DNA of 64,000 bases from an uncultured Rickettsiales bacterium (GCA_944391025.1 CALXSC010000110.1:74627-138626), one strand, 5' to 3'. Numbered from the stretch's first letter, positions 16,392-53,864 are shown. Program-made: numbers and translations. The notes: generated by a model from the sequence alone, not told the origin.

Positions 16392-16393
16392 AG

Positions 16394-30878: not shown

Positions 30879-30898
30879 AAAATTAGGAAATATTAAGT

Positions 30899-33800: not shown

Positions 33801-36568
33801 GAATCAAATATATTATAAGGAGAAGATGTTAACGTTCTAAGTTGATCAACACTATCTAAAATACCCTATTCTTCACCAGAATACTAAAATATCTAAAATT
33901 TATCTCCAGATGATGTAACTTTATAAGAATTTAACTTATCTAATATAGTAATTTTTCCATCTTTAGTTAGACATCCTATGTTTAATTTTATTGTATGATC
34001 TTTTACTTTAGATATATCTAAAGTTTCCGCTTTTTGAATGCTGTCAATACTATCTTTAAAATCAAGTAATAGTTTATCTTCTGGTTGTATAGAAGTACTT
34101 GCTTCAGCAATTTGTGCTTCAAGAGTTGTATTACTCTATAATAAATACTATTTTCTATTTTCGTTACTATCCTTAATTGTAGTTAAACTATCATTAGATA
34201 AAACTGTCTCATTTATTAAATTCTGATATTGAGTTTTTAAATTTTCAGGTTCTTCTAATTTAGCATATTCTAAATCATAATTATGCTATGCCTGAGAAAC
34301 TAGATTCTATTTAGAAGTTAATTCATTTTGAAACTCATATAATTTTCCATATTCAATAGATATTTTATCTTCTTGATTAGAAAGATTTTCTCTAATGGTT
34401 TGTAATTCCTAGGTATATTGAGTAGATAAATTTAAATATTGTAGCTATTCTTCGTTTTTAGTTTGAAAAGACTATTGTATAGTTTCTAATTTTTTCTAAG
34501 ACATTTCTAACTCATCTGAAATAATAACCTATTCACTAAGACTATCCTTATATTCATTCTATAAATTAAGTTTATTTGTCTCTTGAATTAATATATTATT
34601 TTGTATTTCATTTCGTCCATTATTTGTAGAAGATAATTCATTCTAATAAGAAGCTGAAGTAACTTGATTAGAATCTAAATAACTTTTAGCTTCCTCTAGA
34701 TCAGAAGTTAAATCAGAAAGAGTACTTTCTATAGAACTTATCTATTCCTTATATGCAGTTAACTAATTTTCAAGTGTACTTACTTCTGCTTTAGTATCTT
34801 CGACTTCCTATTTAATCTATTCAAACTAAACAGCATCAAAACCTTCTGGTAACTTCTATAATAAATTAGATATTGCAATTGAATTTTCTTGAAATTCGGT
34901 ATTATATTTATTAAACTATTCTTGGTCTACTATTTCTACAATATCATAATCTAGTCCAGGTCTTATCTCTTCTACAATACCTGGAGCCATAGTTACTCCT
35001 GGAGTACTTAGTAAAGAGATACTATTAGTTTGAGGATTCTAATAGGCATTTATTACTTCGCTTATTGATTCATTTCTGTTAACTAGCCATGTATATGCTT
35101 CATAATTGTCTATAGTGTTCTAAGAAGACTCTATCTAATTATTAAGATTAGTAATGTTAGAACTAACCTACTAAATAGAAGTATTTATATTTTCTTTATT
35201 AAGAGTTGCGTCTTCAATTTTTTTATTTAAATCCTCAATCTATACTTTATAGTCTGATATAGTGGTGTTAGTACTATTAATAAGCTCATTTAATTCAGAA
35301 ACCCTAGTACTATTATCATTATTATAATTAGTTAGATCAGTCTCTAATTTAGCAATTTCATCATCTATTGCCTTTAAATTAGAATCATAATTATTAATTA
35401 TTTCTGTTACCTAAGTAAGTCTATCCTATTTGCTTTTTACTAATTCTTCCTAAGCAGTCTACTATAATTGTATATTATCTAATTCAGCTTGTAATGAAGC
35501 TATTAATTCTTCATTATCTGCTTTTTCCTAAGTTTTGCTTAATAAATCAATTTCTATACCATTTTTCTGCGCAGTTAATTCAGATATTATACTATTCTAA
35601 TCATTTACTTGTTTTTCAGCTTCAATCTATTTATTTTTTGCTTCTTCAATTGCTGTAAGTAAAGTAGGAAAATTACTTTTAATACTAGTTATTTGCGCAT
35701 CTAATTTATCGATTTCAGGCTGATAAATAGTGTCAATATAATTCTAATTAATTTGTATCTAATTACTTGCTTGAACATTTTTACTTTCTAGTACAGCTAT
35801 TTCATTATTATTTAGTAATAACTAGTTATTATAAGATCTTATATTCTACTAAGCTATTGTACTAAGTTCTTTATTATTAAAATAATCAGATATAGATGTC
35901 TAAATTTGATTAGTTATATTATTAGAAATAGAAAAATTTGGAAATTTTTTTAATAATTCATATAATTCTACTTTAGTCGCATCTATATTGACCTAATACA
36001 GATTATTAAACTCTTTAGAAGGCATCTATTCCTAAATTATCTAAATATTTGATAAATATTGTGCTCTCTAAGTTCCTAAAGTATTTAATAATTCATCATA
36101 CTACGATTCCTAATAAAACTTTGGATAATTATCAGTAACATTAGGACTGTATACAATAAATTTATCTCCAGGATAAAATATAAGATCAGAGTTTATTATT
36201 TTTTTAATATAATATTTTGTAGCCCCCTAAGTATTAGGATTGTCATTACTTACTGTTACACCAAAATCATTATTAGTCAATATTGTATTTAAATCACTAA
36301 CTTCACTTGAAGATATATTTCTTTCAGGAGATGGAAAAGATCCTATCTAACTTTTATTAGTTAATGGATTATATGAAACTACATAGATAATACCACCAAA
36401 TGAAGTTGAGCCTAAAGGAATGTATCCTTCAGGCAAATACGCAGTCTCAACTCTACCATTTCCCATATCATTCTAAAGTACATTTTCATTACCATTCATT
36501 GTCATTAATGTAGCATTTAACGCCGTTGTCATGGTATTATCAGGCATGATTAAAGGATTCAGGTCCAT
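30899..36568 (-). CDS. large tail protein (~1,889 aa) with ~2-kb Q-rich coiled-coil stalk
   Basis: ATG 36566-36568 is preceded by AGGAGGGG. TAA is at 30899-30901. Track ORFs 31067, 31817, 32741 and 33140 share the frame. The frame is free of TAA/TGA over 36.5-33.3 kb. The N-terminus reads ...GNGRVETAYLPEGYIPLGSTSFGGIIYVVSYNP. Confidence 0.6.
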
Positions 36569-36609
36569 TAAAATCCCCTCCTAAAATGTATTTGTCTAAT
36601 CAGCTTTTC

Positions 36610-37707
36610 TCATAAAAATTCATATTCATTATTCCAAACTAATATATCTTTAAATTTTAAAGGATCTCTTATATCTACAAGCTCTATATTGTATGCATCA
36701 AAATCAGGCATAAATATTTTTAATTTTTTATTCCGCTTAAAAGGCATTTTAAATATATACCTTTTTCCACATTCTTTTATTCTACATTCATCCTAAATTT
36801 GATACAATATTATATTCTTAAATTTAAAATGAGTTCTAGGTCTTCCCATTTTATTTTTCTAACTTAGATATTCTTGATACTGCTATTCAGTTAAAGCAAA
36901 ATAATAATATCCATCCCAAGGAATTTTTCTCTTTCTGTATAATACTCTTAATCTTATACATAGTTTTCTTATATAATAAAAGAAATGATCCAAGGGATGT
37001 ATTCTAAGATTACCAATATAAAGCCATAATTCTTTATCGGAGATTAAAGTATCACCTCCATAGCTATTATGTAAATATAAAGATTTCCAAGAAAAATTCA
37101 AAATCTTATTTATATCCTGTTTTGATATACTAGGAAACATTTTATATATCTGTTGATAATAATCTTTTATGTACTTATCATTTTTTCCATCTCCATAAGA
37201 CATTCCATTATTTGTATTATTAGTAATTAAATCTCTATAGTATTTATTTAAGTATACAGATTTCATTCTAGGAGTTCTGTTTCCTAACATATAAAGAGTT
37301 AATTGATAACCAGTAAAATTTGATTTTAAAATATCAATATCTAACATTTTTCCAGCTCTTCTCTTTCTTTTAAAATTCTCTCCATCAATTCTCCTCATAT
37401 GTAAATTACATTTTTTTCCTCCAGTTAAAGGAAGCCAAAAAGTTATATTATTGTTTACTATATCGGATATTACTAATTTTACACTTTCCTTAAAAATTTT
37501 ATAAACTAATAAATTCCTATGTCTGTCACCAATTAATTCTTCCGCATCTTTACAAGTAAAATGTAACTTTTTATAAGGAAAGTTTTCTAATACTTCATCT
37601 AAAGTAAAAGCACACCCAAGTGCGTAATTATTCATACATTTTAAAGGATTTACTATGTTGCTTTCTATTCCAGCTACTCTTTGCTTCAAGTACCTGATTC
37701 CATTCAT
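36610..37707 (-). CDS. hypothetical basic protein: 274 TAG-free codons, then TAG (36883-36885), then a 91-codon in-frame extension to TGA
   Basis: This is track ORF 36883..37707, whose stop is TAG. The frame continues ...ALTE-Q-QYQEYLSQKNKMGRPRTHFKF...NEYEFL to TGA at 36610-36612. Two products are possible: 274 aa in the standard code, 365 aa with read-through. Confidence 0.5.
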
Positions 37708-42126: not shown

Positions 42127-42166
42127 AAAAAAAATTGTGGAGGGAGGGTTTTACGGCTCCCTCCAC
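42127..42166 (-). terminator. rho-independent terminator after the capsid gene
   Basis: Minus strand reads GTGGAGGGAG-ccgtaaaacc-CTCCCTCCAC followed by AATTTTTTTT, 25 nt after the TAA at 42192. Confidence 0.75.
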
Positions 42167-42191: not shown

Positions 42192-42321
42192 TTAAGCTTC
42201 TCTTAAAATAGCTGATCTATGAGGAGTGAAAACGGCCACCCCTGAATATTGCATCATTACTAATTTGCTGCCAGCAACGTTGCTAGCGACTTCACCTGAC
42301 GTTTTACCGTCATAACCACCT
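42192..42321 (-). CDS. MCP exon 9 (43 codons, GGYDGKTSGEVASNVAGSKLVMMQYSGVAVFTPHRSAILREA*)
   Basis: Starts after ...GAUAUAGUCUAAAUUUG| (omega G at 42322). TAA at 42192-42194 is anchored by plus ORF 42020..42211. A terminator follows. Confidence 0.6.
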
Positions 42322-45300
42322 CAAATTTAGACTATATCTTTAACTTATTCTAAGTATTTAAATGTATAATTATGACAATGCTTAGCTTGTCCTCTTAATA
42401 CTTTAGAAACATTGGGAAATTCTTTTCTACATTCCCTTAAAGTATTAAAAACTTTTACTAATTGTCCATCCATTGTATATTGTCCTATTTTTCTTCTTTT
42501 ATTTACAGTTTGTTCTTTATCCATCTGTTTTATAAAAGATAAATTATATGTATTTATCTATTCAGTAAATTGATTAATAATAAAATTCTAAAAATTAATT
42601 GCCCTTTCGTAAGTATCATATATAGCTAAAGTAAATCTTCTAAACGCACTATATCCATACTTTTTAATATCTTTATGAAAAGGAATTTTGGGATGCTTTA
42701 ATTCTGGGTTACTCTAAAAAATATTAATAGAGTTTCCAATATATCCATCAAATACTGTAGGATCTTCTGTTTCGTGAACTCCTACATAAATTTTATTATT
42801 TATTAAATTAGTAGTTAAATATACAATATATTTCATAATTTATACTTTTATTAAGTTATTTACCATTTCCACTATAAAATAGTGTACCTCTATCCAGAGT
42901 AGTCGTTGAACTTTACTGTGAGCTGATTTATAATCTTGCCTATTCACAGTCTTAGCTGCTGATTGTTCTAAAAAGAAGTTCCCAGCAATTAGATAAATTT
43001 ATTATTCAAAAGAGTCACCTCTTAAGCGGCGCAAGTGGTGTAGTTTACGCCTACTATCTTATTGGTAATAATATCCTTACCAGCCAGCATGAATTTACCA
43101 ATGGCAGGCATTCCTGAAGTCTTATCGGCGGTAAGGTCGATGCATACGCCATAGCCTTTATCGGGATATTCTCTAGTTAAAGCACGGTCTACTACGAAAG
43201 ACAATTGATTACCAGCGTAAACATAGGTATCAAACGTAGCTCCTACTTTAATATATCCACCTTGTCCTTTATTAGCAGACTTAGAATACATATAAGTACC
43301 CATTGTCTTATAATTAGCAAGATATTCACCAAGGACTGTGTTAATATCCTACCATAACTTACGGTTTAAAACAAATACCCCAATTGTGTTATTCTAAAGA
43401 TTGGGAATCTTTAACTCTTATATTTTCATATAAGTTCAGACTATATCTTTATCCCGAAGGACATCTCCCATTTCCATCTAAAAAAAAAGATGTATGCCAT
43501 TTCTGGACTTACTAGTCGTTGAGCCTTACCTAAAAATTAGGTCTTGGTTGCTGATCATCCTCGACTTTACGTTAGGATTTTCCAGCAGTTAGAGAGATTT
43601 ATTTTTGCAGCTCTTTCAAGCTACCCAAGCTAGGTTTGTTAACTTGTTACCCTGATCTTCTTGTGCTTTGTCAGCCATTGCGTTCATAATTATATTAAAC
43701 AGCTGCAGATTAGGTTTACCAGCGTAAACAAACTTGTCTGCAAACTCTTCAATTTGAGGAATGGCTCCTTGTCCTATATATCATAACGTTTTATCCATTA
43801 TTGCTAATGGTATCGGACTATATCTTCAACTTAATCTCTTTATTAAGTTGCCTCCCTTTTCCACTTATAAAAGTGTACTCTCTTTCGAGATAGTCTCTGA
43901 ACTTTACCCTAAATGGGTCTTAGCTGCTGATTGTCCCAGTAGGATTTCCAGCAATTAAAGAGGATTATTATTGTAATTATCACTAATTACCCCTACATAT
44001 ACTTTAGGACTTAAGTATTTTATAGGCCTAGCAGTATCAGGATCTACGATTGTTGCTTTCAATTATGTTACCCTAATAGCTCTTTATCTATTAGTTCTAT
44101 TACTTTACCATCGTAATAGTTCAGACTATATCTTCATCCTATAAAGGATGCTTTGCACTCGTGGAGCTTATAAAGCTCTAGTCGTTGAACCTTCCTTAAT
44201 AAGGCTTGGCTGCTGATTATCCTAATATTATTGGAGGATTTCCAGCAATTCACAAAGTTTTCAATAATAAATTACTTTATTATGCGGCAAAACGCTTACC
44301 GTTGACATCCACATTGCCTTTGTTGAGTAATACATTACTATTAACTTTATATTTCTATAAAGATTAGACTATATCTTTACTTTATATCCTATTATCGTTT
44401 ATAAAGTACCTCCCTTTTCCACAATTGTGTACTCTACTTGTTTATTCGTATAAGTATTTCTCTTATACTATACGTTCGATAGTCGTTGAACGTTTCTCCT
44501 TGGAGACTTCGCTGCTAGTTATCTTAATAAGATTTTCCAGCAATTAAAGAGGTTTATACAGAGCTATTACTTAAGCAGTTTTAACCCTGTGTTGGTAGCG
44601 TACATAAAGGTTTCAAGAAGCTCTTTTTCCTTTTTAAGCATTTTATATACACCTTCACCCTTGGCTATATTCTTATCGTCGGCAATCTTCATGAATACGT
44701 CTTCCTAGAGAGCGTATAAGCTAGACCAGCTAGCGTCTGCTCTAAACGTAGTCATAAAATTTCTGTGAAGCTCTACTTGCGACTAGAACTTGCTATAGCC
44801 CTCCTCCGTTGGGCCTAATATTTCTACTAGAACTGACTATATCATTAACTTTTTAATCTAAATACTTATACACGTAACCTTTTTGGGTTTTATTTGTACC
44901 ATTAAGTACTTTCCATACTGAAGTGCCATTCTCCTTTTCAGCAGCTGTAGCAGAATCATAAATTTGGACTAAGTTACCTTCTAAGTCATATTTGCCTACC
45001 TTTCTTTTTGTTTTTGGCTTTTTGGCAGCATACTTAGGTAATTCTTCTAAGCTCCATAAAAATCCACCTTTACATTTTTCTTTTTGTTTTAAAGCTCTTG
45101 ATATATTAGAGGTAGGATTATCTTGTTCTGCTTCTAATTGTGAATTATATTTCTTAATAAATTCACCAGTCTCTCCATCGTATTTACATACCATTCTTCC
45201 TTCTACATATCTTAGTCTAGCTTTAGAATAATTTTCATCTTTAACTTCACAAAAATAATATTTATTTTTATAAGAGATTCCAAATATTCTACAATTCTTA

Positions 45301-48300
45301 AGACAAGATGAAGAAATATTTAAATTTTTAGAAGCTTGTACTTGATTAGGAAATTCATATAAAAGATTACCTTCTATAGAATAAACAAATAAAGGAATTT
45401 GATGATTTTCTCCTAAATTATAAGTGGAAATATCAAGTTTATCTACTTTAGTATTTGTCCATAGAAAACCTTTCCCTTTAATTTTTAAAGTAATAGCGTG
45501 TCCTATTAAAGAGTCATCACATCCCATTTCTATAGAAGCAGCTCTAATACTCTCATATTCTCTTATATAATTTCCTTCTAAATCATATTGATAACACGGA
45601 ACAATTATATAGAAATTATCATCAACTCCTCCAAGAATCATATTGTACACATCATCCCTTGCAAGAAACTTTTCATTTACTAATTCTCTCTCTAAATTAG
45701 AAGCTTCTTCTAATGTATCAAATACTGCTAATGTTTTCCTTCTAAAATTCTTAGGACCATACTTTTTTACTGCAAATTGAAAATGTGTTTTAGGATGATT
45801 ATATGTGTTAGGTTGAGTTGCTAGTACTCCACATCCTATATATCCATCAAATATATCAGGATTTACTGTTTTATGAACTCCAATATAAATTTTATTATTC
45901 ACCAAATTGGTTGTTTCGTATACTATATATTTCATATTATTTAAAATTTTAAAGTTATTTACTATTTCCATTATCTAATAATGTACGTCTTGCGACTAGT
46001 CGATGAACTCCTATAAAGTACCGTCTAAATTAGACTAGTTACTAAATAAAAGCTGCTGATTACCATATATTTCTACTTAGGCTTCCAGCAATTAAGTAAA
46101 TTTTTTCTTAATAAATCACTTTATTAAGGTCCGAATTATTTCAGACAATTCAGGTACGGCTACAGATTGGAATGTCGTTAACATGCCAGCCTAGCACCCA
46201 TCTACATCGAGTGTAGTGTCAAAATCGTTATCGATTAAGCGAACTTGCACTTCCCAGAAATTCATTTATAGACTATATCATTTACTATATTTAAATATAT
46301 AATTATCAAAGTATCTATCTCCTTGTTGAATATGTTTTAACTTAGAAGAAGGAACATTATATTTTTCTCTTACTTCTTTTAAAGATTTTAAAGTTTCAAT
46401 GTAATTACCAAATTTGTCATATATTTCTACACAAATTCCATTTCCTTTTCTTTTTACAGGAATTTTATCTATTTTTTCTAAAGATATATAAAAATCCTTA
46501 TACCAATTTCTATTATGTGTAAAAATGTGTCCTATATAATCCCAGGAATGTAATCCTATAACATTCATTAATTGTTTACCTTTATACTCTCCTATAAAAT
46601 TATTATTAACATCATAAACATAGAACATTTTATCTATATAATTTTTTCTAGAACTAGGTTTAAATTCATCAACTACAGTATTAGAAACATAATATTGTTT
46701 TTTTATAAGAGTTTGGTATTTTATAGCTCTACTAAGTTCTCCTCTATCGTATTTAATATAATTTGCACATTCAGTTTGTGAAGAAAACTCCATAAGCATC
46801 TTTCCGTCTTTGTTATAGAGATATGTTATAGAGGTAATAGGTTTATTAGAGTATTCACTAATATCCATAATAGGACTAGTTGACCAAAATGAATCTAAAA
46901 AAACACATTTATTTTTTTTAGGACTACTCCATCTAGAAATAGGGTACCCATAAAATTCACTGGCATCTATAGATTTTTCCCAAATCTTTACTAATTTTCC
47001 AGTTAAATCATATTGATATAATGGTTTAAATCTTTCCTCATATGCACCTCCTAAAGCAACATTATATACATGTGATTGTTTAATGAAATCTTCGGTTACT
47101 ATTTCATGTTCTTTGTTATAAGCATCTTTCCAATTATCATATACATACAAAATTTGTCTTTTAAAAGCGTCTACTCCATATTTTTTTACTGCATATTGAA
47201 AAGGAGTTTTAGGATATTTATATGTGCTTGGTTGATTTGTATTTATTCCGCATCCTATATACCACGGATCCATTGTTATTTCATTTTTTATTCCATGTAC
47301 TCCTACATAGATTCTATTTAAACCATTAATTTGAGATTTAATATTTGTTGTTAAGTAAACTATATATTTCATAAGTAATTCAGTTTTTCAATTATTAAAA
47401 ATAATAATTTATGGATCTCTCCTAGTCGTTGAACTCTCTTGTCGTTACAAGCAAGCTGCTGATTGTTCTATTATAAGAAGTTCCCAGCAATTTAAAGAAT
47501 TTATTTTCATAATAAATATTTTATTTATTAACAGCGGGACAATTACTGGTTATCCCGCTTACGAATGGGTCTGCTAACCACTTGACATTGCTGTTTCGTT
47601 GCGTCAATTCTGAAAATATCATACTTTTGATAGTAATTTTCAGTAAACGCCATAGTGATTTCCGAACCATTATCACCTGTGTCGGTAGGCTATTCGGCAA
47701 ATGCAATCTTTTTAATATTATTGGTTTCCACTTGCCATTCAAATACCATTGAAGATGACGAAACGTCAAAGTTACTGGGTTTTTCGTCTTTATAAAAGAC
47801 GTTTCTCAAACCATCCGTAATAAAATTCAAGGTATTTTGTGTGTACATACGGGCTACAACACCCAAACGATAGGGTTTAGCACCAAGGTACTTACTCCAG
47901 TCTTCGTAGGTCTTCGTGTCCAAAAGTGTTAACTTATAGGCTCTTTATCCTATAATTCATACAATTTACCATCTTGTATGATCAGACTATATTATTGCTA
48001 TCCTGCGCTCGTGTCTGGATTATATTCTAATAAAGTTCTTTTAACTATAGGATTAGGATCTATACCTGCATATATCTATGCTTCTTTTAAAGAACTAAAT
48101 ACAGCATCACAAGATATTGTAATACCTCCAGATAGAATAACTGCTGTACAAGTATACCATTTACAAGGTATCAATCCGAAAAATATTCTATTAGATTCTA
48201 CTCTATACTGAATAGTTCCATCTTTTAATTCTTCTTTTATAATCCTTTTCATATTAGTTTCACCAGGTAGTCGTTGAACTTTTTAAAGTTGTTAACCTTT

Positions 48301-48423
48301 AACTTAGCTGCTGATTACCCCATAAGTATATGTAATGGAGGGTTTCCAGCAATTCACAGGATTTTTTATGGGCAACACTTTACCCATATTAGGAATCTTA
48401 CTTGTAAAACTTGCAACTAACAT
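42192..48423 (-). CDS. major capsid protein gene, nine exons interrupted by eight group I introns (spliced CDS 1,494 nt, 497 aa)
   Basis: Exons are 48423-48382, 47932-47552, 46262-46143, 44806-44584, 44344-44298, 44059-43989, 43772-43627, 43380-43047 and 42321-42192. They join in frame, which I verified by counting. The gene lies directly after a scaffold-like gene and is followed by a terminator. Length and the C-terminal ...REYPDKGYGVCIDLTADKTSG... are plausible for an MCP. The MCP call itself is positional. Confidence 0.7.
42322..43046 (-). mobile_element. group I intron 8 (725 nt) carrying a short GIY-YIG ORF
   Basis: P1 GGCGU|AA...UUGCGCC, P TAATTGCTGGGAAC, Q CAATCAGCAGCT, R AGTTCAACGACTAC (+ tagtcgttgaac ~42900), ORF 42836-42345, S AAAGATATAGTCTA (+ gac at 42330), omega G at 42322. 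Confidence 0.8.
42345..42836 (-). CDS. short GIY-YIG homing-endonuclease-like ORF (163 aa) in intron 8, with three in-frame TAG
   Basis: Product is MKYIVYLTTNLINNKIYVGVHETEDP...KYGYSAFRRFTL... plus one YTMDGQLVKVFNTLRECRKEF...GQAKHCHNYTFKY DNA-binding-type module. TAA at 42345-42347 lies 9 nt before the S element. Confidence 0.6.
43047..43380 (-). CDS. MCP exon 8 (~111 codons)
   Basis: Starts after ...AACACAAUUG| (omega G at 43381). It includes track ORF 43022..43303 down to ...NKIVG, and ends GGCGU| in the P1 helix GGCGU|AA-ACUACACCAC-UUGCGCC. The track tail VNYTTCAA* is intronic read-through. Confidence 0.65.
43381..43626 (-). mobile_element. group I intron 7 (246 nt, ORF-less)
   Basis: P variant TAACTGCTGGAAAATCC, Q GATGATCAGCAACC, R GGCTCAACGACTAG (~43513), S AAAGATATAGTCTG (+ gac at 43439), 3' hairpins CTTATAT-GAAA-ATATAAG and AAAGATT-CCCA-ATCTTT. 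Confidence 0.7.
43627..43772 (-). CDS. MCP exon 7 (~48 codons, QGAIPQIEEFADKFVYAGKPNLQLFNIIMNAMADKAQEDQGNKLTNLA)
   Basis: Ends AGCUU| paired with GAGCU (U.G). The acceptor could be at 43772 or 43781; both keep the frame. Confidence 0.45.
43773..43988 (-). mobile_element. group I intron 6 (~216 nt, ORF-less; both ends +/-15 nt)
   Basis: P TAATTGCTGGAAATCC, Q CAATCAGCAGCT, R variant AGTTCAGAGACTAT (+ tagtctctgaac ~43891), S GAAGATATAGTCCG (+ gac at 43816), 3' hairpin CCATTA-GCAA-TAATGG. Confidence 0.65.
43989..44059 (-). CDS. MCP exon 6 (71-nt micro-exon, KATIVDPDTARPIKYLSPKVYVG; 3' boundary uncertain)
   Basis: Starts after ...AACAUAAUUG| (omega G at 44060). The 5' splice site of intron 6 was placed after GGGGU by analogy and phase. 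I could not find a convincing U.G P1 pair for it. Confidence 0.4.
44060..44297 (-). mobile_element. group I intron 5 (238 nt, ORF-less)
   Basis: P GAATTGCTGGAAATCC, Q TAATCAGCAGCC, R GGTTCAACGACTAG (~44179), S GAAGATATAGTCTG (+ gac at 44124). The 3' hairpin CTATTAC-GATGGTAAA-GTAATAG has the same loop as intron 1. Confidence 0.75.
44298..44344 (-). CDS. MCP exon 5 (47-nt micro-exon, ..NSNVLLNKGNVDVNG)
   Basis: Flanked by complete intron cores. It ends CGGU| in the P1 helix CGGU|AAGCGUUUU-GCCG. The phase is consistent with exon 4 (+1) and exon 6 (0). Confidence 0.5.
44345..44583 (-). mobile_element. group I intron 4 (239 nt, ORF-less)
   Basis: P TAATTGCTGGAAAATC, Q variant TAACTAGCAGCG, R CGTTCAACGACTAT (+ tagtcgttgaac ~44480), S AAAGATATAGTCTA (+ gac at 44367). 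I counted the length base by base between exons 4 and 5. Confidence 0.75.
44584..44806 (-). CDS. MCP exon 4 (~74 codons; 5' boundary uncertain, 44770-44826)
   Basis: Open frame EEGYSKFQSQVELHRNFMTTFRADASW...ETFMYATNTG. The 3' end is CAGGGU| in the P1 helix CAGGGUU...AGCUCUG. Several G-preceded in-frame acceptor positions are possible. Confidence 0.45.
44807..46142 (-). mobile_element. group I intron 3 (~1,336 nt; 3' end uncertain) carrying a GIY-YIG homing endonuclease ORF
   Basis: P1 GUCU|GAA...UUCGGAC, P2 CTTAATAAA-GTGA-TTTATTAAG, P TAATTGCTGGAAGCC, Q TAATCAGCAGCT, R variant GTTCATCGACTAG (~46008), ORF 45971-44853, S AATGATATAGTCAG (+ gac at 44835). Confidence 0.7.
44853..45971 (-). CDS. 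GIY-YIG homing endonuclease (I-TevI/Seg-like) in intron 3, TAG-free
   Basis: This is the 372-aa track ORF. The conserved start is probably the Met at 45935 (MKYIVYETTNLVNNKIYIGVHKT). It has four repeats of the YDLEGN.I..Y.S...A......S.I......K..GF.W type (NUMOD/IENR-like). The stop is TAA. Confidence 0.8.
   Translation of the reverse strand: MEIVNNFKILNNMKYIVYETTNLVNNKIYIGVHKTVNPDIFDGYIGCGVLATQPNTYNHPKTHFQFAVKKYGPKNFRRKTLAVFDTLEEASNLERELVNEKFLARDDVYNMILGGVDDNFYIIVPCYQYDLEGNYIREYESIRAASIEMGCDDSLIGHAITLKIKGKGFLWTNTKVDKLDISTYNLGENHQIPLFVYSIEGNLLYEFPNQVQASKNLNISSSCLKNCRIFGISYKNKYYFCEVKDENYSKARLRYVEGRMVCKYDGETGEFIKKYNSQLEAEQDNPTSNISRALKQKEKCKGGFLWSLEELPKYAAKKPKTKRKVGKYDLEGNLVQIYDSATAAEKENGTSVWKVLNGTNKTQKGYVYKYLD
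46143..46262 (-). CDS. MCP exon 3 (40 codons, NFWEVQVRLIDNDF...VAVPELS)
   Basis: Starts after ...GAUAUAGUCUAUAAAUG| (omega G at 46263). It ends GUCU| in the P1 helix GUCU|GAA-AUAA-UUCGGAC. It contains one in-frame TAG. Confidence 0.6.
46263..47551 (-). mobile_element. group I intron 2 (1,289 nt) carrying a GIY-YIG homing endonuclease ORF
   Basis: P AAATTGCTGGGAAC, Q CAATCAGCAGCT, R AGTTCAACGACTAG (+ tagtcgttgaac ~47424), ORF 47372-46278 in the R-S interval, S AATGATATAGTCTA (+ gac at 46271). The P1 has 10 bp with a U.G pair. Confidence 0.8.
46278..47372 (-). CDS. GIY-YIG homing endonuclease in intron 2, TAG-free
   Basis: This is the 364-aa track ORF: MKYIVYLTTNIKSQINGLNRIYVGVHG..., KYGVDAFKRQIL, and repeated YDLTGKLVKIWEKSIDASEFYG-type modules. 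TGA at 46278-46280 abuts the S element. Confidence 0.8.
   Translation of the reverse strand: MKYIVYLTTNIKSQINGLNRIYVGVHGIKNEITMDPWYIGCGINTNQPSTYKYPKTPFQYAVKKYGVDAFKRQILYVYDNWKDAYNKEHEIVTEDFIKQSHVYNVALGGAYEERFKPLYQYDLTGKLVKIWEKSIDASEFYGYPISRWSSPKKNKCVFLDSFWSTSPIMDISEYSNKPITSITYLYNKDGKMLMEFSSQTECANYIKYDRGELSRAIKYQTLIKKQYYVSNTVVDEFKPSSRKNYIDKMFYVYDVNNNFIGEYKGKQLMNVIGLHSWDYIGHIFTHNRNWYKDFYISLEKIDKIPVKRKGNGICVEIYDKFGNYIETLKSLKEVREKYNVPSSKLKHIQQGDRYFDNYIFKYSK
47552..47932 (-). CDS. MCP exon 2 (127 codons)
   Basis: Begins after G 47933. Its first nucleotides AACACUU are complementary to the intron 1 guide AAGUGUU (P10). It covers track ORF 47690..47923 plus 46 codons beyond its TAG, and ends ...RPIRKRD at the U.G pair of the intron 2 P1. 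Confidence 0.65.
47933..48381 (-). mobile_element. group I intron 1 (449 nt) with a small non-GIY ORF
   Basis: On the minus strand: P GAATTGCTGGAAACC, Q TAATCAGCAGCT, R AGTTCAACGACTAC, an ORF, S AATAATATAGTCTG (+ gac at 47985). Two 3' hairpins follow (ATACAA-GATGGTAAA-TTGTAT and TTATAGG-ATAAAGA-GCCTATAA). Confidence 0.75.
47992..48252 (-). CDS. 86-aa ORF of unknown function in intron 1 (two in-frame TAG)
   Basis: ATG 48250-48252, TAA 47992-47994, overlapping the S element. Product is MKRIIKEELKDGTIQYRVESNRIFFGLIPCKWYTCTAVILSGG.... It occupies the same R-S position as the GIY-YIG ORFs but has no GIY-YIG motif. Confidence 0.35.
48382..48423 (-). CDS. MCP exon 1 (MLVASFTSKIPNMG; the start could be the second ATG at 48387)
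   Basis: ATG 48421-48423 lies 17 nt after the scaffold TAA. The exon ends ATGGGU, paired in the P1 helix ATGGGU|AA-AGUG-UUGCCCAU with a U.G at the splice site. Confidence 0.55.
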
Positions 48424-48440
48424 ATACTTATAAAAATTAA

Positions 48441-49487
48441 TTAAAAATTATCCAAATCATCATATACACGGGACTTCTTTTCTTTATTTGCATAAACTAC
48501 AGAATTCCCGCCTTTTCTAGCATCTTCTAATCCTTTCTAATAACTATCTTTTCTTACTTGCTTTATTTCATTTTGGAAATAACTAGTAATGTCGTCAACC
48601 ATCTATTTGCCGTTTAGTGCAAACCATGCTGTCTAAACTAAAATTTTAGGATCTGATAAAGCTTTTGCAAAGTAATTATTACCTGCTCCATCTTGACCTG
48701 TAATGAAGTCATATAAATCATCTTTATCTTCATCTGTTAGATTTAAATCATACCCAGAGAATTCATTAAAGTCATCTATATAACTTACAATTTGATTAGC
48801 AAATTGATGATACCTCTCTTTAGCTTGCTCTTCCTATTCGTACTAAGCCTATTTAATGTTTTCGTCTTCAAGTGCTTTATATTCTCTACGAATGGCAGCT
48901 ACCTACTTATTAAATAAAGTCTCATTAGATTTAGCTCTTTCAAGAGCTTCCTGAGCTTCTTCGTCAGTAATATCTCCCATTCTACTAATAAGATCGAAAA
49001 CAAACAACTCATCATCACTATATTGATCTATTTGATAACTTGGTTGCTGCATATTTTTAATATAATTATCAAGTGTAGTTCTCTACACATGATTAATATA
49101 TTCAGCAGGAGTTAAACCACTTTCTCTGATAGCATTAATAAGTCTGGCTTCAGAGTCATCTAAATCTGTATCAGGATCACTATTAGAAGATTCTAGAATG
49201 TTAAGTCTTTCTTCATTACTCAATTCATTCCAATTAACCTCACTAATTTCTCCATTTTCATCTTCAAATTTAATCTTAGTCGGATCTTCAATTCCTTTAC
49301 TCTTTAATAATGTTGTTATGAAATCATCTTCTGGTTGTTCTTCTGGAATTATCTATTCCTCAAATTCCTATTCAATAGGATTAGGAATAGTATTATTCTC
49401 AGGTTCTGAAGTATCGAGTTCAGCCTCAGGTTGGGTGAAATCTTCTACTTCATCGTAAAATTCATCATCATTAATTCCTATTTCCAT
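48441..49487 (-). CDS. scaffolding-like protein (348 aa; acidic N-terminus, coiled coil)
   Basis: ATG at 49487 lies 21 nt after the upstream TAA. TAA is at 48441-48443, 17 nt before the capsid ATG. Product is MEIGINDDEFYDEVEDFTQPEAELDTSEPENN.... It has ten in-frame TAG. The scaffold call rests on composition and position. Confidence 0.55.
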
Positions 49488-49508: not shown

Positions 49509-50075
49509 TTATTCTATAACTTTTATTATATAATATAGCTTATAATAACTTATAGCAGTTTCAGAATCATTCTATATTCCAATAATTCCTTCAGTATTTA
49601 AATCAGACTCATTTGCACCTATAATAAATCTATCAATTAAATTTGGAACTACTATATCATAATCCTTACTATCTCCGTTACAAAGAGTCCATCCTTCAGG
49701 AATAGTATCTCCAGAGAACATTACAATAGTTCCTTTAGGAATCGTATTAGAAGATCCTCCAGCTAGATTTATTTGAGTACTTTTTGAAACCAATGTAACT
49801 TGATTATCATTAGTTACATAAATTCCGTCTTTCTTACCTACTTTATCTGTATTATAAATAAATTTATTCTCTACTGCTAATTTTCCGTCTTTAATTAATG
49901 GAATATATTTATTACCCCACTATATTTTAATATCTCCTTTTGTTCTTAAAACTAAATCTGAAAATCTATTACCTACTGTAGCAAATACTTTACCAAATAA
50001 AGGAACTTTCGGCAAATCATCATCTCCCTTTTCAAGTTTACTAACTCTCTTTTCTAAATCTTCAAGTGTTGCCAT
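49509..50075 (-). CDS. tail-collar-domain protein (188 aa)
   Basis: ATG 50073-50075 overlaps the amidase end by 14 nt. It extends track ORF 49572..49793 by 20 codons past its TAG to TAA at 49509. IPKGTIVMFSGDTIPEGWTLCNG...VPNLIDRFIIGA matches the phage tail collar (PF07484-type) pattern. Confidence 0.6.
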
Positions 50076-50634
50076 AATTTAATATCCCCTTAACATGTAA
50101 ATTAACTATTTTTTGCTTACCTTCTTTAGATAATAAGAAATCTACATCTTCTTTATTATCTTGAAATAAATTTTCAGTTAATACAGAAGGACATTTTGTG
50201 TCTCTACAAATAGCTAATGATTGTACCCAATAAGACTTATCAGCATATTGCCGTCTTATTTTTAATCCAGTAGCTTCTTTGGCAATAGAATCTGCTAATC
50301 TAATAGAATCTTTAGAAGCATTCTGAGCTACAAAAACACTCCACCCATTTGCTTGATGCCAATTATTGTCATTAGCAGAAGCATTACAGTGTACTGATAT
50401 TAAAATAGCATCTTTTCTTTCTTCGTATATTTTATTAGCTCTTTTTACTCTATCATTTAATGGAATATCTATTTCTTCTGGAACTAGATTGATACATTCT
50501 ATATTATGCTTTTTTAATTCATTTTCTATTTCATGTATAATCTCTCTAGCATAAGAATATTCCTGAAGTCTATTGTCAGGACTGCGTTTTCCTGGAGTAT
50601 TTACTCCGTGACCTGGATCTAAGATAACAATCAT
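50062..50634 (-). CDS. N-acetylmuramoyl-L-alanine amidase (Amidase_3-type endolysin), TAG-free
   Basis: This is the 190-aa track ORF: MIVILDPGHGVNTPGK..., ILISVHCNA..., TENLFQDN, which are typical Amidase_3 zinc-ligand regions. The stop is TGA. Confidence 0.8.
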   Translation of the reverse strand: MIVILDPGHGVNTPGKRSPDNRLQEYSYAREIIHEIENELKKHNIECINLVPEEIDIPLNDRVKRANKIYEERKDAILISVHCNASANDNNWHQANGWSVFVAQNASKDSIRLADSIAKEATGLKIRRQYADKSYWVQSLAICRDTKCPSVLTENLFQDNKEDVDFLLSKEGKQKIVNLHVKGILNYGNT

Positions 50635-50705
50635 AAATTTAAATTTAATATATTATATAATTTTTACATCTACATTCTCATATTATTCTATGGACAAATC
50701 TATAA

Positions 50706-50758: not shown

Positions 50759-51136
50759 TTATATCATATCTTCCCATTCTATAGGTATTCCTAATTTAGC
50801 AGTATCTGCATACCAGCGATTAAAAATAAGATCTGATTCTTTTTCAAATATGTCTTTTATAAACAACATGAAATGCTTTTCGTCAGCTATGCTTGATCCA
50901 TAAAAAATAGATTTGCACCAATTAGCTACATAAACTCCATCATATAACTTAGCATCTTTTAATTCTATATTATGTAATTTTAAAAGATTATCTAATTGAT
51001 CTTTTGTTACATCATTTTTAGATAAATTTTTAATAGCAAATTCACATAACTTCTTATTAAAATGAGGACCATAGTATCTTAAATAGTTAAGAAATCCTTC
51101 AGGTTTTATATCATATTCAGTATAGTCTTCTTTCAT
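50759..51136 (-). CDS. hypothetical protein (125 aa from ATG; 140 aa if the TTG at 51181 is used), TAG-free
   Basis: Track ORF 50759..51181 begins at a TTG three codons after the upstream in-frame TAA. The first ATG is at 51136 (MKEDYTEYDIKPEGF...). The stop is TAA. Confidence 0.55.
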   Translation of the reverse strand: MKEDYTEYDIKPEGFLNYLRYYGPHFNKKLCEFAIKNLSKNDVTKDQLDNLLKLHNIELKDAKLYDGVYVANWCKSIFYGSSIADEKHFMLFIKDIFEKESDLIFNRWYADTAKLGIPIEWEDMI

Positions 51137-51187
51137 ATTATAAACTAAAAAGGCAGAGGTACTAATGAGTACATCTGCCAATAATAA

Positions 51188-53453: not shown

Positions 53454-53840
53454 TTATTGTATATCGTTTTCTTTAATATCAGGAGCATCTATTTCAAAAT
53501 CTAATATTGCTAATAAGTCTTCTATTTCTTTATCTGTATATGGACATCTATTTTTACAAGATTCCACAGTACAAATTTTTCCAATCATTCTTATAACAAC
53601 ATTTTTTAATCGAATAAGATCTCCTTTGTTTTTATCAATAATTTTACCGTAGATATCAAGTTTTCTTCCTAGATCTTTAACCATCTTTTGATACACTTCC
53701 ATAGAAGCTTTGATATTCTCTATAGTAGTAGTATCTACCTCAGCATTATACTTTCTTTTAGTAAATAACCAAGTTCCCAAAGAAGAAAAAAATGTAGTAA
53801 GAATACCTATAGCCCCAGTAATTATTACACCGAAATCCAT
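53454..53840 (-). CDS. small N-terminally membrane-anchored protein (128 aa), holin/spanin-like, TAG-free
   Basis: Track ORF with a TAA stop. MDFGVIITGAIGILTTFFSSLGTWLF forms one TM segment, followed by a charged coiled coil. Confidence 0.5.
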   Translation of the reverse strand: MDFGVIITGAIGILTTFFSSLGTWLFTKRKYNAEVDTTTIENIKASMEVYQKMVKDLGRKLDIYGKIIDKNKGDLIRLKNVVIRMIGKICTVESCKNRCPYTDKEIEDLLAILDFEIDAPDIKENDIQ

Positions 53841-53864
53841 TTTATATCAGAAAGTAAAGTTTTA

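What the first reader, a model, noticed from the sequence alone, without database searches (positions are those of the whole stretch)
42192..48423. Capsid gene split into nine exons by eight related group I introns (about 76% of the locus is intron)
The four classical group I core elements occur eight times on the minus strand, always in the canonical order.
- P: AATTGCTGGAAA (+ strand ttccagcaatt).
- Q: AATCAGCAGC (+ strand gctgctgatt).
- R: GTTCAACGACTA (+ strand tagtcgttgaac, near 42900, 43513, 43891, 44179, 44480, 46008, 47424 and 48268).
- S: AAGATATAGTC (+ strand gactatatctt, at 42330, 43439, 43816, 44124, 44367, 44835, 46271 and 47985).

The short, GC-richer segments between the cores make a protein only when joined. 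I placed the junctions using P1 helices with the U.G pair (ATGGGU|AA-AGUG-UUGCCCAU; AGCGGGAU|AA...UUGUCCCGCU; GGCGU|AA...UUGCGCC) and a G before each acceptor. Exons of 42, 381, 120, 223, 47, 71, 146, 334 and 130 nt then join in frame to a 497-aa product. The gene sits directly after a scaffold-like gene and ends at a terminator.

Known phage group I introns are usually single, with a few cases of two or three per gene. I am not aware of a described phage structural gene needing eight self-splicing events. Capsid production would depend on all eight ribozymes folding.
Basis: partly seen in the sequence, partly recalled or inferred. Interest (0 to 1): 0.95.

Follow-up and report, generated by a model that had tools for sequence, protein, structure and literature searches.

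The report
Phage capsid gene with eight introns
The major capsid protein gene of this crAss-like gut phage really is split into nine pieces by eight self-splicing group I introns and also needs the stop codon TAG read as glutamine, but intron-riddled capsid genes were already described for this phage group, so this is an extreme example, not a new kind of thing.

Summary
Eight group I intron cores lie on the minus strand between 42322 and 48381. Rfam RF00028 finds seven (four full-length, 78-110 bits). A leave-one-out covariance model finds the eighth (63 bits) and nothing else in the 64 kb.

Uninterrupted ~475-aa homologues fix all junctions. Each has one placement that keeps colinearity, has U before the 5' splice site and G before the 3' splice site, and forms a P1 helix ending in U.G. 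The corrected exons are 42/369/120/223/35/38/140/334/130 nt and give 476 aa.

The product is 83% identical to an intact homologue with no indel at any junction. It matches Pfam Crass_capsid and is under purifying selection.

The whole window uses TAG as a sense codon, most likely Gln.

Three introns carry homing-endonuclease ORFs.

It is not a new kind. Yutin et al. 2021 reported Zeta crAss-like phages with up to 14 introns per genome and an MCP gene in five fragments. I found IMG/VR capsid genes with four, five and six introns. Eight is the highest count I saw.

The parts
48382..48423 (-). Exon 1 (42 nt; MLVASFTSKIPNMG)
   Evidence: ATG at 48423. Matches residues 1-14 of the homologues. L007 has the same exon 1 followed by an orthologous intron.
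47921..48381 (-). Intron 1 (461 nt), group I, with a 58-aa ORF of unknown function (48076-48252) inserted 3' of P7
   Evidence: RF00028 half-hit at 48242-48363, 33.9 bits. R1 model 76.7 bits, but it was a training member. P1 UAUGGGU/GCCCAUA with U.G, and a terminal G. An ORF-less orthologue sits at the same site in L007. P8 is not evident.
47552..47920 (-). Exon 2 (369 nt; residues 15-137; one in-frame TAG at residue 91)
46263..47551 (-). Intron 2 (1289 nt), group I, with a 364-aa homing-endonuclease ORF (46278-47372) between the P3' strand and the S element (P8 region)
   Evidence: Not hit by Rfam. A leave-one-out model built from the other seven introns hits 47423-47502 at 63.1 bits, E 1.2e-12. 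8-bp P1 AGCGGGAU/GUCCCGCU with U.G, and a terminal G. ORF: NUMOD1 and phrog_314 homing endonuclease.
46143..46262 (-). Exon 3 (120 nt; residues 138-177; TAG at 161 aligns with Gln)
44807..46142 (-). Intron 3 (1336 nt), group I, with a 372-aa GIY-YIG/NUMOD1 homing-endonuclease ORF (44853-45971) in the P8 loop
   Evidence: RF00028 hit at 45987-46148, 50.8 bits. P1 and terminal G. ORF: NUMOD1 x2, SegE-like GIY-YIG (below cut-off), phrog_314 E 1e-28.
44584..44806 (-). Exon 4 (223 nt; residues 178-251 plus 1 nt; TAG at 185 and 211 align with Gln)
44333..44583 (-). Intron 4 (251 nt), ORF-less group I intron
   Evidence: RF00028 full-length hit, 80.9 bits, E 5.5e-19. P1 ACAGGGU/GCUCUGU with U.G, and a terminal G. 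L153 has an intron at or next to this site.
44298..44332 (-). Exon 5 (35 nt micro-exon; LLLNKGNVDVNG)
44060..44297 (-). Intron 5 (238 nt), ORF-less group I intron
   Evidence: RF00028 full-length hit, 110.1 bits, E 1e-27. P1 CGGU/GCCG with U.G, and a terminal G. Its 3' part has a 35-bp exact match in the split MCP gene of cr118_1.
44022..44059 (-). Exon 6 (38 nt micro-exon; KATIVDPDTARPI)
43782..44021 (-). Intron 6 (240 nt), ORF-less group I intron
   Evidence: RF00028 full-length hit, 97.7 bits, E 5.2e-24. P1 CCUAU/GUAGG with U.G, and a terminal G. An orthologous intron with near-identical guide sequence and 3' tail sits at the same RPI|YIG site in L153.
43642..43781 (-). Exon 7 (140 nt; residues 276-322)
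43381..43641 (-). Intron 7 (261 nt), ORF-less group I intron
   Evidence: RF00028 full-length hit, 78.1 bits, E 3.7e-18. There is a unique junction: K|W restored as AAG T|GG. P1 CAAGU/GCUUG with U.G.
43047..43380 (-). Exon 8 (334 nt; residues 323-434; TAG at 333 aligns with Gln)
42322..43046 (-). Intron 8 (725 nt), group I, with a short (163-aa) homing-endonuclease ORF (42345-42836) in the P8 loop that is open only if its three TAGs are read as sense
   Evidence: RF00028 half-hit at 42858-43052, 34.2 bits. P1 GGCGU/GCGCC with U.G, and a terminal G. ORF: phrog_314 E 1e-14. An I8-like intron, 74-86% identical, sits at the same site (434/435) in L007.
42192..42321 (-). Exon 9 (130 nt including the TAA stop at 42192-42194; residues 434-476)
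42127..42166 (-). Intrinsic terminator after the gene (10-bp GC-rich stem, 10-nt loop, U8 tail)
   Evidence: Fold energy -20 kcal/mol, z = -3.6. The consensus scanner missed it because the loop exceeds 8 nt.
48441..49487 (-). Upstream gene: acidic 348-aa protein (11 TAG codons), syntenic with a 357-aa gene in relatives. 'Scaffold-like' is plausible but untested.
   Evidence: No Pfam or PHROG family hit.

Best explanation
This is the single major capsid protein (MCP) gene of a TAG-recoded crAss-like phage, probably of the large-genome 'Zeta' group. A family of mobile group I introns of the phage IA type has colonised it at eight sites.

Proposed mechanism:
1. The 6.2-kb locus is transcribed as one pre-mRNA that ends at the terminator at 42166-42127.
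2. Each intron folds into the P3-P9 ribozyme core. It pairs its 5' guide sequence with the last 4-8 exon bases (P1, ending in U.G) and excises itself by the standard two-step guanosine-initiated transesterification, ending at its terminal G.
3. Eight such events join nine exons into a 1431-nt mRNA.
4. Ribosomes that enter unspliced RNA stop at a TAA or TGA codon 3-26 codons into each intron.
5. Translating the spliced mRNA needs a phage-supplied amber-suppressor tRNA (not in this window) to read five TAG codons, most likely as Gln. The result is a 476-aa HK97-fold capsid protein.
6. Introns 2, 3 and 8 carry GIY-YIG/NUMOD-type homing endonucleases. These spread the introns into intron-less capsid alleles during co-infection. 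The four ORF-less introns (4-7) lie 35-140 nt apart and would travel by co-conversion.

Shown: the ribozyme cores, the junctions, colinearity, recoding, the endonuclease domains, purifying selection, and shared sites in relatives.
Inferred: actual self-splicing, the order and efficiency of the eight events, homing, and the identity of the suppressor tRNA.
For: - **Ribozyme cores.** RF00028 hits for seven introns. The eighth was found by a leave-one-out model at 63 bits, with no other hit in the window above 15 bits.
- **Shared fold.** De novo RNAalifold on the eight ORF-deleted introns recovers P4, P5, P6 and P7. P5 and P6 show compensatory changes. P4 and P7 are kept in all eight.
- **Junctions.** At each of the eight, exactly one of the homology-equivalent placements has U before the 5' splice site and G before the 3' splice site. 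All eight have P1 with U.G.
- **Colinearity.** The spliced product is 393/476 identical to uninterrupted P0001, with one gap column and none at a junction. Ligated exon DNA aligns without gaps to contiguous DNA in L001 and L002 at every junction. tblastn finds nine colinear pieces and no second copy in the window.
- **Selection.** dN is 0.11-0.17 with dS saturated.
- **Protein family.** Pfam Crass_capsid scores 41 bits against a cut-off of 27. A model of the homologue P0001 hits the phicrAss001 MCP (7QOF) at E 5e-17.
- **Synteny.** The order amidase / 357-aa gene / MCP / 290-aa gene is conserved in relatives.
- **Recoding.** With TAG as sense, minus-strand ORFs of at least 150 aa rise from 2963 to 17205 aa. 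Four of the five MCP TAGs align with Gln.
- **Early stops.** Every intron has an in-frame TAA or TGA early on.
- **Endonucleases.** Homing-endonuclease domains in the ORFs of introns 2, 3 and 8.
- **Shared introns in relatives.** Orthologous introns sit at the same sites in L007 (sites 1 and 8) and L153 (site 6).
- **Assembly.** A contig from a separate assembly pipeline is 99.99% identical across the whole locus.
Against: - There are no RNA data, so splicing is not observed.
- Intron 1 shows no clear P8, and only its 5' half matches RF00028.
- Introns 2 and 8 have only 8 nt after the S element, so no P9 hairpin. Their 3' halves are not matched by Rfam because of the ORF insertions.
- My P3 helix test did not beat shuffled controls in this AU-rich RNA.
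- No suppressor tRNA is present in the 64-kb window.
- Zeta-group membership rests on genome sizes of relatives and on code usage, not on a phylogeny.
- The structure model was of the homologue P0001, not the spliced product, and was low-confidence (pLDDT 59).
Confidence: 0.88

Rival explanations
1. The locus is a decaying, non-functional capsid pseudogene overrun by selfish elements. The phage is defective or uses another MCP copy outside the window.
For: - 77% of the locus is insertion.
- Some ribozymes look incomplete: intron 1 lacks an obvious P8, and introns 2 and 8 lack P9.
- The intron-8 endonuclease is truncated (163 aa).
- Only 64 kb of a probably ~170-kb genome is visible.
Against: - All nine exons are intact, with no frameshift or TAA/TGA stop.
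- The product is 83% identical to intact homologues, with one gap column.
- dN is 0.11-0.17 with dS saturated, which indicates strong purifying selection.
- The gene sits at the conserved syntenic MCP position, and the window holds no second copy.
- Orthologous introns 1, 6 and 8 persist in capsid genes only 57-70% identical. That is expected only if they splice.
Confidence: 0.04
2. The eight introns are real, but some are not autonomous ribozymes. They need a protein cofactor (a maturase-like activity of an intron ORF, or a host or phage chaperone), or they depend on each other's folding. Capsid expression would then be regulated and not constitutive.
For: - The cores of introns 1, 2 and 8 depart from the Rfam consensus in their 3' halves.
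- The micro-exons of 35 and 38 nt put neighbouring ribozymes very close together.
- The two full-length endonuclease ORFs avoid TAG completely. They could therefore be made without the suppressor, that is, before late genes are translated.
Against: - The four ORF-less introns match the full RF00028 model at 78-110 bits.
- P1, the terminal G, P4, P6 and P7 are intact in all eight.
- Known phage IA introns self-splice in vitro (established knowledge).
- No maturase-type domain was detected.
Confidence: 0.07
3. The arrangement is a metagenomic mis-assembly that stacks repeated intron copies from several genomes into one locus.
For: The eight introns share conserved cores of 10-12 nt, and short repeats like these can confuse assemblers.
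Against: - The shared exact stretches are far shorter than sequencing reads. The introns are otherwise only ~65-85% alike.
- A Logan assembly of run ERR4096604 gives the same 10.2 kb at 99.99% identity.
- The exon order is perfectly colinear with homologues.
Confidence: 0.01

Closest known systems
Intron-rich MCP gene of Zeta-group crAss-like cMAG OLRF01000054 (Yutin et al. 2021, Nat Commun 12:1044, PMC7886860, Fig. 7a)
   Same: A crAss-like phage with a genome of about 165-190 kb. Its MCP gene is fragmented by several group I introns, some with endonuclease ORFs. [quoted passage not shown]
   Different: That gene is in five fragments (four interruptions, three recognised as introns through endonuclease domains). 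It comes from a TGA-recoded lineage and has no recoded codons in the MCP. Here there are nine exons and eight introns, four of them ORF-less and so invisible to a domain-based search. TAG recoding also operates inside the same gene.
Multi-intron capsid genes in public viral contigs: L137 (IMGVR_UViG_3300045988_138716), L153 (IMGVR_UViG_3300045988_073527), L097 (IMGVR_UViG_3300025087_000044)
   Same: L137 is a crAss-type MCP with six RF00028 hits. L153 is a crAss-type MCP with four, including an orthologue of intron 6 at the identical site. L097 is an HK97-type MCP of an unrelated phage with five.
   Different: They have fewer introns. As far as I could find they are not described in the literature. 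L097 carries HNH-type ORFs and not GIY-YIG ORFs.
Split MCP of uncultured phage cr118_1 (MT774379; Besingivirus coli, Suoliviridae, Crassvirales)
   Same: The MCP is annotated as two CDSs with a 477-nt gap between them. The gap contains a 35-bp exact match to the 3' part of intron 5, so it is the same intron family in a capsid gene.
   Different: One intron only, and it is not annotated as an intron. The genome is 92.6 kb.
Classical phage group I introns (T4 td, nrdB and nrdD; SPO1 DNA polymerase; three introns in Staphylococcus phage Twort orf142): established knowledge, not re-tested here
   Same: The same conserved core motifs (GUUCAACGACUA and AAGAUAUAGUC type), P7.1/P7.2 hairpins between P7 and P3', GIY-YIG or HNH homing endonucleases in peripheral loops, and early in-frame stops inside the intron.
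   Different: Those genes carry one to three introns, and mostly encode nucleotide-metabolism or replication proteins under the standard genetic code.
Jug (jumbo gut) phages (Sci Adv 2026, PMC12880540)
   Same: Gut phages predicted to infect Bacteroides or Phocaeicola, with about 18.5 group I introns per genome. Essential genes such as terL are split into two or three fragments. Splicing was confirmed by metatranscriptome reads for 37 of 76 predicted introns.
   Different: They use no alternative genetic code. At most two or three fragments per gene were reported. It is a different phage lineage.

Membership tests
Group I catalytic intron (Rfam RF00028) | Covariance-model score at or above the gathering threshold (50 bits) | tested here: met
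   Introns 4, 5, 6 and 7 are full-length hits at 78-110 bits. Intron 3 scores 50.8 bits for its 5' half. Introns 1 and 8 are below threshold at 34 bits, and intron 2 gets no Rfam hit. For these three the ORF insertion splits the model. Intron 2 was recovered by a leave-one-out family model at 63 bits.
Group I catalytic intron (Rfam RF00028) | P1 helix formed by an internal guide sequence, with a U.G wobble at the 5' splice site | tested here: met
   8 of 8 introns, with 4-8 exon-side pairs. The guide sequence lies within the first ~30 intron nt. The junctions were fixed independently by protein homology.
Group I catalytic intron (Rfam RF00028) | Terminal G (omega-G) as the last intron base | tested here: met
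   8 of 8. It is the only homology-compatible placement that also has U at the donor.
Group I catalytic intron (Rfam RF00028) | Conserved core helices P3-P8, including the P7 guanosine-binding helix | tested here: inconclusive
   P4, P5, P6 and P7 were recovered de novo in all eight, with compensatory changes in P5 and P6. P3 is modelled by cmscan in seven introns, but my shuffle test of P3 was not discriminating. P8 is not evident in intron 1. There is no P9 hairpin in introns 2 and 8.
Group I catalytic intron (Rfam RF00028) | Self-splicing with exogenous guanosine and Mg2+ | not testable with these tools
   No RNA or biochemical data are available.
Crassvirales major capsid protein (Pfam PF23898 Crass_capsid; HK97 fold) | Profile match above the curated cut-off | tested here: met
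   The spliced product scores 41.2 bits against a cut-off of 27, E 9e-11. It also matches PHROG 11589, major head protein.
Crassvirales major capsid protein (Pfam PF23898 Crass_capsid; HK97 fold) | Fold similarity to the solved phicrAss001 capsid protein | tested here: met
The top seven Foldseek hits are 7QOF, 7QOH and 7QOI, E 5e-17 to 1e-15, with ~460 aligned columns. Caveats: model pLDDT 59 and TM-score ~0.34.
Zeta-group crAss-like phages (Yutin et al. 2021) | Genome of 145-192 kb and placement in the Zeta clade of TerL/MCP/portal trees | not tested
   Only 64 kb is visible. Close relatives sit on contigs of 150-190 kb. Zeta subgroups 4-6 use TAG as Gln. No tree was built and no accession link was found.
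TAG-to-Gln recoded phage (genetic code 15) | ORFs restored genome-wide when TAG is read as sense, and TAG aligned with Gln in homologues | tested here: met
   ORFs of at least 150 aa rise from 2963 to 17205 aa on the coding strand. Making TGA sense has no effect. Four of the five MCP TAGs align with Gln. TAG makes up 53% of Gln-type codons.
TAG-to-Gln recoded phage (genetic code 15) | Phage-encoded suppressor tRNA (anticodon CTA) | tested here: not met
   ARAGORN finds no tRNA in the 64-kb window. In related genomes the tRNA block lies elsewhere, so this does not argue against recoding.
GIY-YIG homing endonuclease | GIY-YIG catalytic domain plus NUMOD-type DNA-binding modules | tested here: inconclusive
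   NUMOD1 is above its cut-off in the ORFs of introns 2 and 3. SegE_GIY-YIG scores 20 bits in the intron-3 ORF, below the 25-bit cut-off. All three ORFs match PHROG 314, homing endonuclease, at E 1e-12 to 1e-28. They begin with the motif MKYIVY...IYVGV (read directly from the sequence).

The most novel reading that the evidence does not exclude
This may be the most intron-dense protein-coding gene so far seen in a bacterial virus: eight group I introns, 77% of the locus, and two micro-exons of 35 and 38 nt. It also needs amber-codon reassignment, so making the most abundant virion protein depends on eight ribozyme reactions plus a suppressor tRNA.

The two full-length intron endonuclease genes are written entirely without TAG, in a genome where TAG is the commonest Gln-type codon. 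That suggests these selfish genes stay translatable under the standard code. They could then be expressed before the code switch, or move between phages that use different codes.
Probability: 0.35. Interest if true: 0.55.

Novelty: new member of a known kind. Interest (0 to 1): 0.42.

Why it matters
- **Natural test case.** It shows how much selfish-element load an essential, very highly expressed phage gene can carry. If each intron spliced at 90%, only about 43% of transcripts would be fully spliced.
- **Annotation.** Standard gene callers see only fragments here. Rfam's gathering threshold misses three of the eight introns. Domain-based searches miss the four ORF-less ones. Published intron counts for crAss-like phages are therefore probably underestimates, and capsid genes in such genomes get mis-annotated, as with the two 'major capsid protein' CDSs in cr118_1.
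- **Testable lead.** The absence of TAG from the endonuclease genes is a lead on how mobile elements cope with hosts that use different genetic codes.

Tried and rejected
- A brute-force search over all junctions at once timed out twice. I replaced it with local-context searches.
- A 'best complementary helix' test for P3 against shuffled controls was not discriminating in this AU-rich RNA: 29-231 of 500 shuffles did as well. I discarded it.
- Insertion sites are not more conserved than random sites in the MCP alignment (0.869 against 0.857, p = 0.30). This is uninformative because the whole protein is highly conserved in the set.
- phmmer against PDB sequences gave only spurious hits.
- The consensus terminator scanner missed the real terminator because its loop is 10 nt.
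- RF00028 at gathering threshold found nothing in the singly interrupted relatives L007, L008, L062, L066 and L074. blastn showed that their insertions are homologous ORF-bearing introns.
- Matching the contig lengths of relatives to Yutin's table, to prove Zeta membership, found nothing.
- An exact P-motif match at 28448 (minus strand) lies inside a continuous 1760-aa ORF, has no Q, R or S nearby, and gets no hit from the family model. I treat it as chance.
- I considered inteins and rejected them. Every insertion has in-frame TAA or TGA stops and a ribozyme core.

Full report

Yes. A motif scan finds the four classical core elements eight times on the minus strand, always in the order P, Q, R, S, between 42.3 and 48.4 kb. 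R (at most 2 mismatches) occurs eight times in the locus and twice in the other ~120 kb of both strands. Q occurs as an exact match six times in the locus and nowhere else.

Rfam's RF00028 model gives four full-length hits: introns 5, 6, 4 and 7 at 110, 98, 81 and 78 bits, E 1e-27 to 4e-18. It also gives three half-hits that cover only P3-P7, for introns 3, 8 and 1. In those three a protein-coding ORF is inserted downstream of P7, which splits the model.

Rfam does not flag the eighth intron (intron 2). I built a covariance model of the P3-P7 core from the other seven introns only. It finds intron 2 at 47423-47502 with 63 bits (E about 1e-12, full-length match). Nothing else in the 64 kb scores above 15 bits. 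The window therefore holds exactly eight members of this intron family, all in one gene.

RNAalifold was run with no group I prior on the eight ORF-deleted introns. It recovers P4, P5, P6 and P7. P5 and P6 show compensatory changes, and P4 and P7 (GACUA/UAGUC) are kept in all eight.

**2. Gene model**

A rough concatenation of the coding pieces retrieves hundreds of uninterrupted proteins of about 475 aa at 76-79% identity and 100% coverage. I used four of them to place each junction by local alignment.

At every one of the eight junctions, exactly one of the equally scoring placements has U as the last exon base and G as the last intron base. Each of those placements also gives a P1 helix of 4-8 exon-side pairs ending in the U.G wobble, with the guide sequence in the first ~30 nt of the intron. 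Protein colinearity, the U...G rule and P1 are three independent criteria, and they agree.

| Piece | Coordinates (minus strand) | Length (nt) |
|---|---|---|
| Exon 1 | 48423-48382 | 42 |
| Intron 1 | 48381-47921 | 461 |
| Exon 2 | 47920-47552 | 369 |
| Intron 2 | 47551-46263 | 1289 |
| Exon 3 | 46262-46143 | 120 |
| Intron 3 | 46142-44807 | 1336 |
| Exon 4 | 44806-44584 | 223 |
| Intron 4 | 44583-44333 | 251 |
| Exon 5 | 44332-44298 | 35 |
| Intron 5 | 44297-44060 | 238 |
| Exon 6 | 44059-44022 | 38 |
| Intron 6 | 44021-43782 | 240 |
| Exon 7 | 43781-43642 | 140 |
| Intron 7 | 43641-43381 | 261 |
| Exon 8 | 43380-43047 | 334 |
| Intron 8 | 43046-42322 | 725 |
| Exon 9 | 42321-42192 | 130 |

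The exons sum to 1431 nt and encode 476 aa. The introns sum to 4801 nt, which is 77% of the locus.

- The product is 393/476 identical to uninterrupted P0001, with a single gap column that is not at a junction.
- At the DNA level, the ligated exons align without a gap to the contiguous genes of L001 and L002 at all eight junctions.
- tblastn with P0001 finds nine colinear pieces at these coordinates and no other copy in the window.
They would add 21 residues that every homologue lacks.

**3.

The spliced reading frame contains five TAG codons. Four of them align with Gln in homologues.

Across the window, reading TAG as sense raises the total of minus-strand ORFs of at least 150 aa from 2963 to 17205 aa, about 81% of the window. 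Making TGA sense changes nothing. TAG supplies 53% of Gln-type codons in the phage's genes.

No tRNA gene lies in the window, so the suppressor must be encoded elsewhere in the genome.

**4. What the protein and its neighbours are**

- The product matches Pfam Crass_capsid (41 bits against a cut-off of 27) and a PHROG major head protein family.
The model is low-confidence (pLDDT 59). Even so, its top seven PDB matches are all the phicrAss001 capsid protein (E 5e-17 to 1e-15), followed by other HK97-fold capsids.
- In relatives the syntenic order is Amidase_3, a 357-aa gene, an intact 474-aa MCP, a 290-aa gene and a 379-aa gene. Here the 6.2-kb split locus sits exactly where they have a 1.4-kb gene.
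- The upstream 348-aa protein is very acidic and has no family match. 'Scaffold-like' is plausible but untested.
- The gene ends at a real intrinsic terminator: a 10-bp GC-rich stem plus U8, -20 kcal/mol, z = -3.6.

**5. Is the gene alive?**

- Against intact relatives, dN is 0.11-0.17 while dS is saturated or 2.7, so dN/dS is about 0.06 or less.
- No exon carries a frameshift or a TAA/TGA stop.
- A contig from a separate assembly pipeline (Logan, run ERR4096604) is 99.99% identical over 10.2 kb spanning the whole locus. That argues against mis-assembly.

**6. Intron anatomy and mobility**

After R (the 5' strand of P7), most of the introns have one or two small hairpins (P7.1/P7.2), then P3', P8 and S (the 3' strand of P7). 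This layout is typical of phage subgroup IA introns. That is my direct reading and was not tested with subgroup models.

Intron ORFs:
- Introns 2 and 3 carry ORFs of 364 and 372 aa, and intron 8 carries one of 163 aa. In introns 3 and 8 the ORF sits in the P8 loop. In intron 2 it sits between P3' and S.
- These ORFs have NUMOD1 domains, a weak SegE-type GIY-YIG match, and PHROG 314 homing-endonuclease matches.
- Intron 1 carries a 58-aa ORF of unknown function. The orthologous 233-nt intron in L007 lacks it.
- Introns 4-7 have no ORF and lie only 35-140 nt apart.

Every intron has an in-frame TAA or TGA 3-26 codons after its 5' splice site, and never relies on TAG. Ribosomes on unspliced RNA would therefore stop early.

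The introns are related but not recent copies of each other. Pairwise blastn gives 68-95% identity over patches of 22-180 nt.

**7. Relatives**

Of 80 IMG/VR loci with a related MCP, 65 are uninterrupted and 15 show one visible break. The insertions are homologous introns.

- L007 has orthologues of introns 1 and 8 at identical sites.
- L074 is interrupted at residue 180/181, close to site 3.
- L153 has an orthologue of intron 6 at the identical RPI|YIG site, with nearly the same guide sequence, although the two proteins are only about 57% identical. It also has an intron at or next to site 4.
- Other relatives use further sites, near residues 378 and 417.

This is a mobile intron family that has sampled many sites in crAss-type capsid genes.

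**8. Comparison with what is known**

- Yutin et al. 2021 (PMC7886860) reported that crAss-like phages of the Delta group, and especially the Zeta group (145-192 kb), have an 'unprecedented' density of group I introns and inteins. [quoted passage not shown] They illustrated an MCP gene split into five fragments, and other genes that combine introns or inteins with TAG or TGA recoding.
- Their Supplementary Data 1 lists Zeta subgroups of 167-192 kb that use TAG as Gln. This fits the present phage, whose close relatives lie on contigs of 150-190 kb. I could not prove Zeta membership.
- A 2025 paper on Zeta phages repeats the point about numerous introns.
- Jug phages have about 18.5 group I introns per genome, and their splicing was confirmed by metatranscriptomics.
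Among the hits were a crAss-type MCP with six RF00028 hits (L137), one with four (L153), and an HK97-type MCP of an unrelated phage with five (L097).
- In the named species *Besingivirus coli* (cr118_1) the MCP is deposited as two CDSs. An unannotated intron of this family lies between them.

**9. Verdict**

Four junctions and the product length were wrong, and the amber reassignment the gene depends on was missed.

It is not a new kind of system. It is the most extreme example I could find (0, 1, 2, 4, 5, 6 and now 8 introns) of a phenomenon already described for crAss-like phages. Splicing, homing and the suppressor tRNA are inferred, not shown.

The most interesting by-product concerns the two full-length intron endonuclease genes. 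They contain no TAG at all, where about ten each would be expected (P about 4e-5 and 3e-5).

Noticed in passing
window 46278-47372 and 44853-45971 (minus strand): The two full-length intron-encoded homing-endonuclease genes contain no TAG codon, although TAG makes up 53% of Gln-type codons in the phage's own genes. About 10 TAGs would be expected in each (P ~4e-5 and 3e-5). They use CAA only for Gln. The short endonuclease ORF in intron 8 (42345-42836) does contain three TAGs.
   Followed up: partly
window 50062-50652, 50759-51187, 53454-53846 (minus strand): Three phage genes are completely free of TAG in an otherwise heavily recoded late-gene block. One is the Amidase_3 (lysis-type) gene. 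They may be translatable before or without the suppressor tRNA.
   Followed up: no
window 48076-48252 (minus strand, inside intron 1): A 58-aa ORF with no family match ends at a TAG, so it would read on under the phage's code. The orthologous 233-nt intron of L007 (about 872-1104) lacks it. Intron 1 also shows no obvious P8 helix.
   Followed up: partly
window 7413-16430, 30899-36619, 25632-30914 (minus strand): Giant ORFs of 3005, 1906 and 1760 aa appear only when TAG is read as sense (93, 67 and 47 TAGs). They are probably the large virion or transcription proteins typical of crAss-like phages. They were not characterised.
   Followed up: no
L137 2812-8763 (IMGVR_UViG_3300045988_138716): A distant crAss-type MCP homologue (32-51% identity) is interrupted by six RF00028 hits, two of them back to back at 6169-6444 and 6458-6741.
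   Followed up: partly
L097 2660-8000 (IMGVR_UViG_3300025087_000044): An HK97-type capsid gene in an unrelated phage, downstream of a protease/scaffold region, carries five RF00028 hits and several HNH-type ORFs. Multi-intron capsid genes are therefore not confined to crAss-like phages.
   Followed up: partly
L205 (MT774379.1, cr118_1, record 81638-83464): The deposited annotation has two adjacent 'major capsid protein' CDSs separated by 477 nt. The gap contains a 35-bp exact match to the 3' part of intron 5, so it is an unannotated group I intron in a named ICTV species.
   Followed up: partly
L007, L008, L062, L066, L074: Introns carrying ORFs in relatives are missed entirely by RF00028 at the gathering threshold, although blastn shows they are homologous to introns 1, 3 and 8. 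Intron counts based on cmscan at default thresholds will be underestimates.
   Followed up: yes
window 28437-28448 (minus strand): There is an exact 12-nt match to the P element (AATTGCTGGAAA) inside a continuous 1760-aa ORF. No Q, R or S lies nearby and the family model gives no hit. I judge it a chance match.
   Followed up: yes
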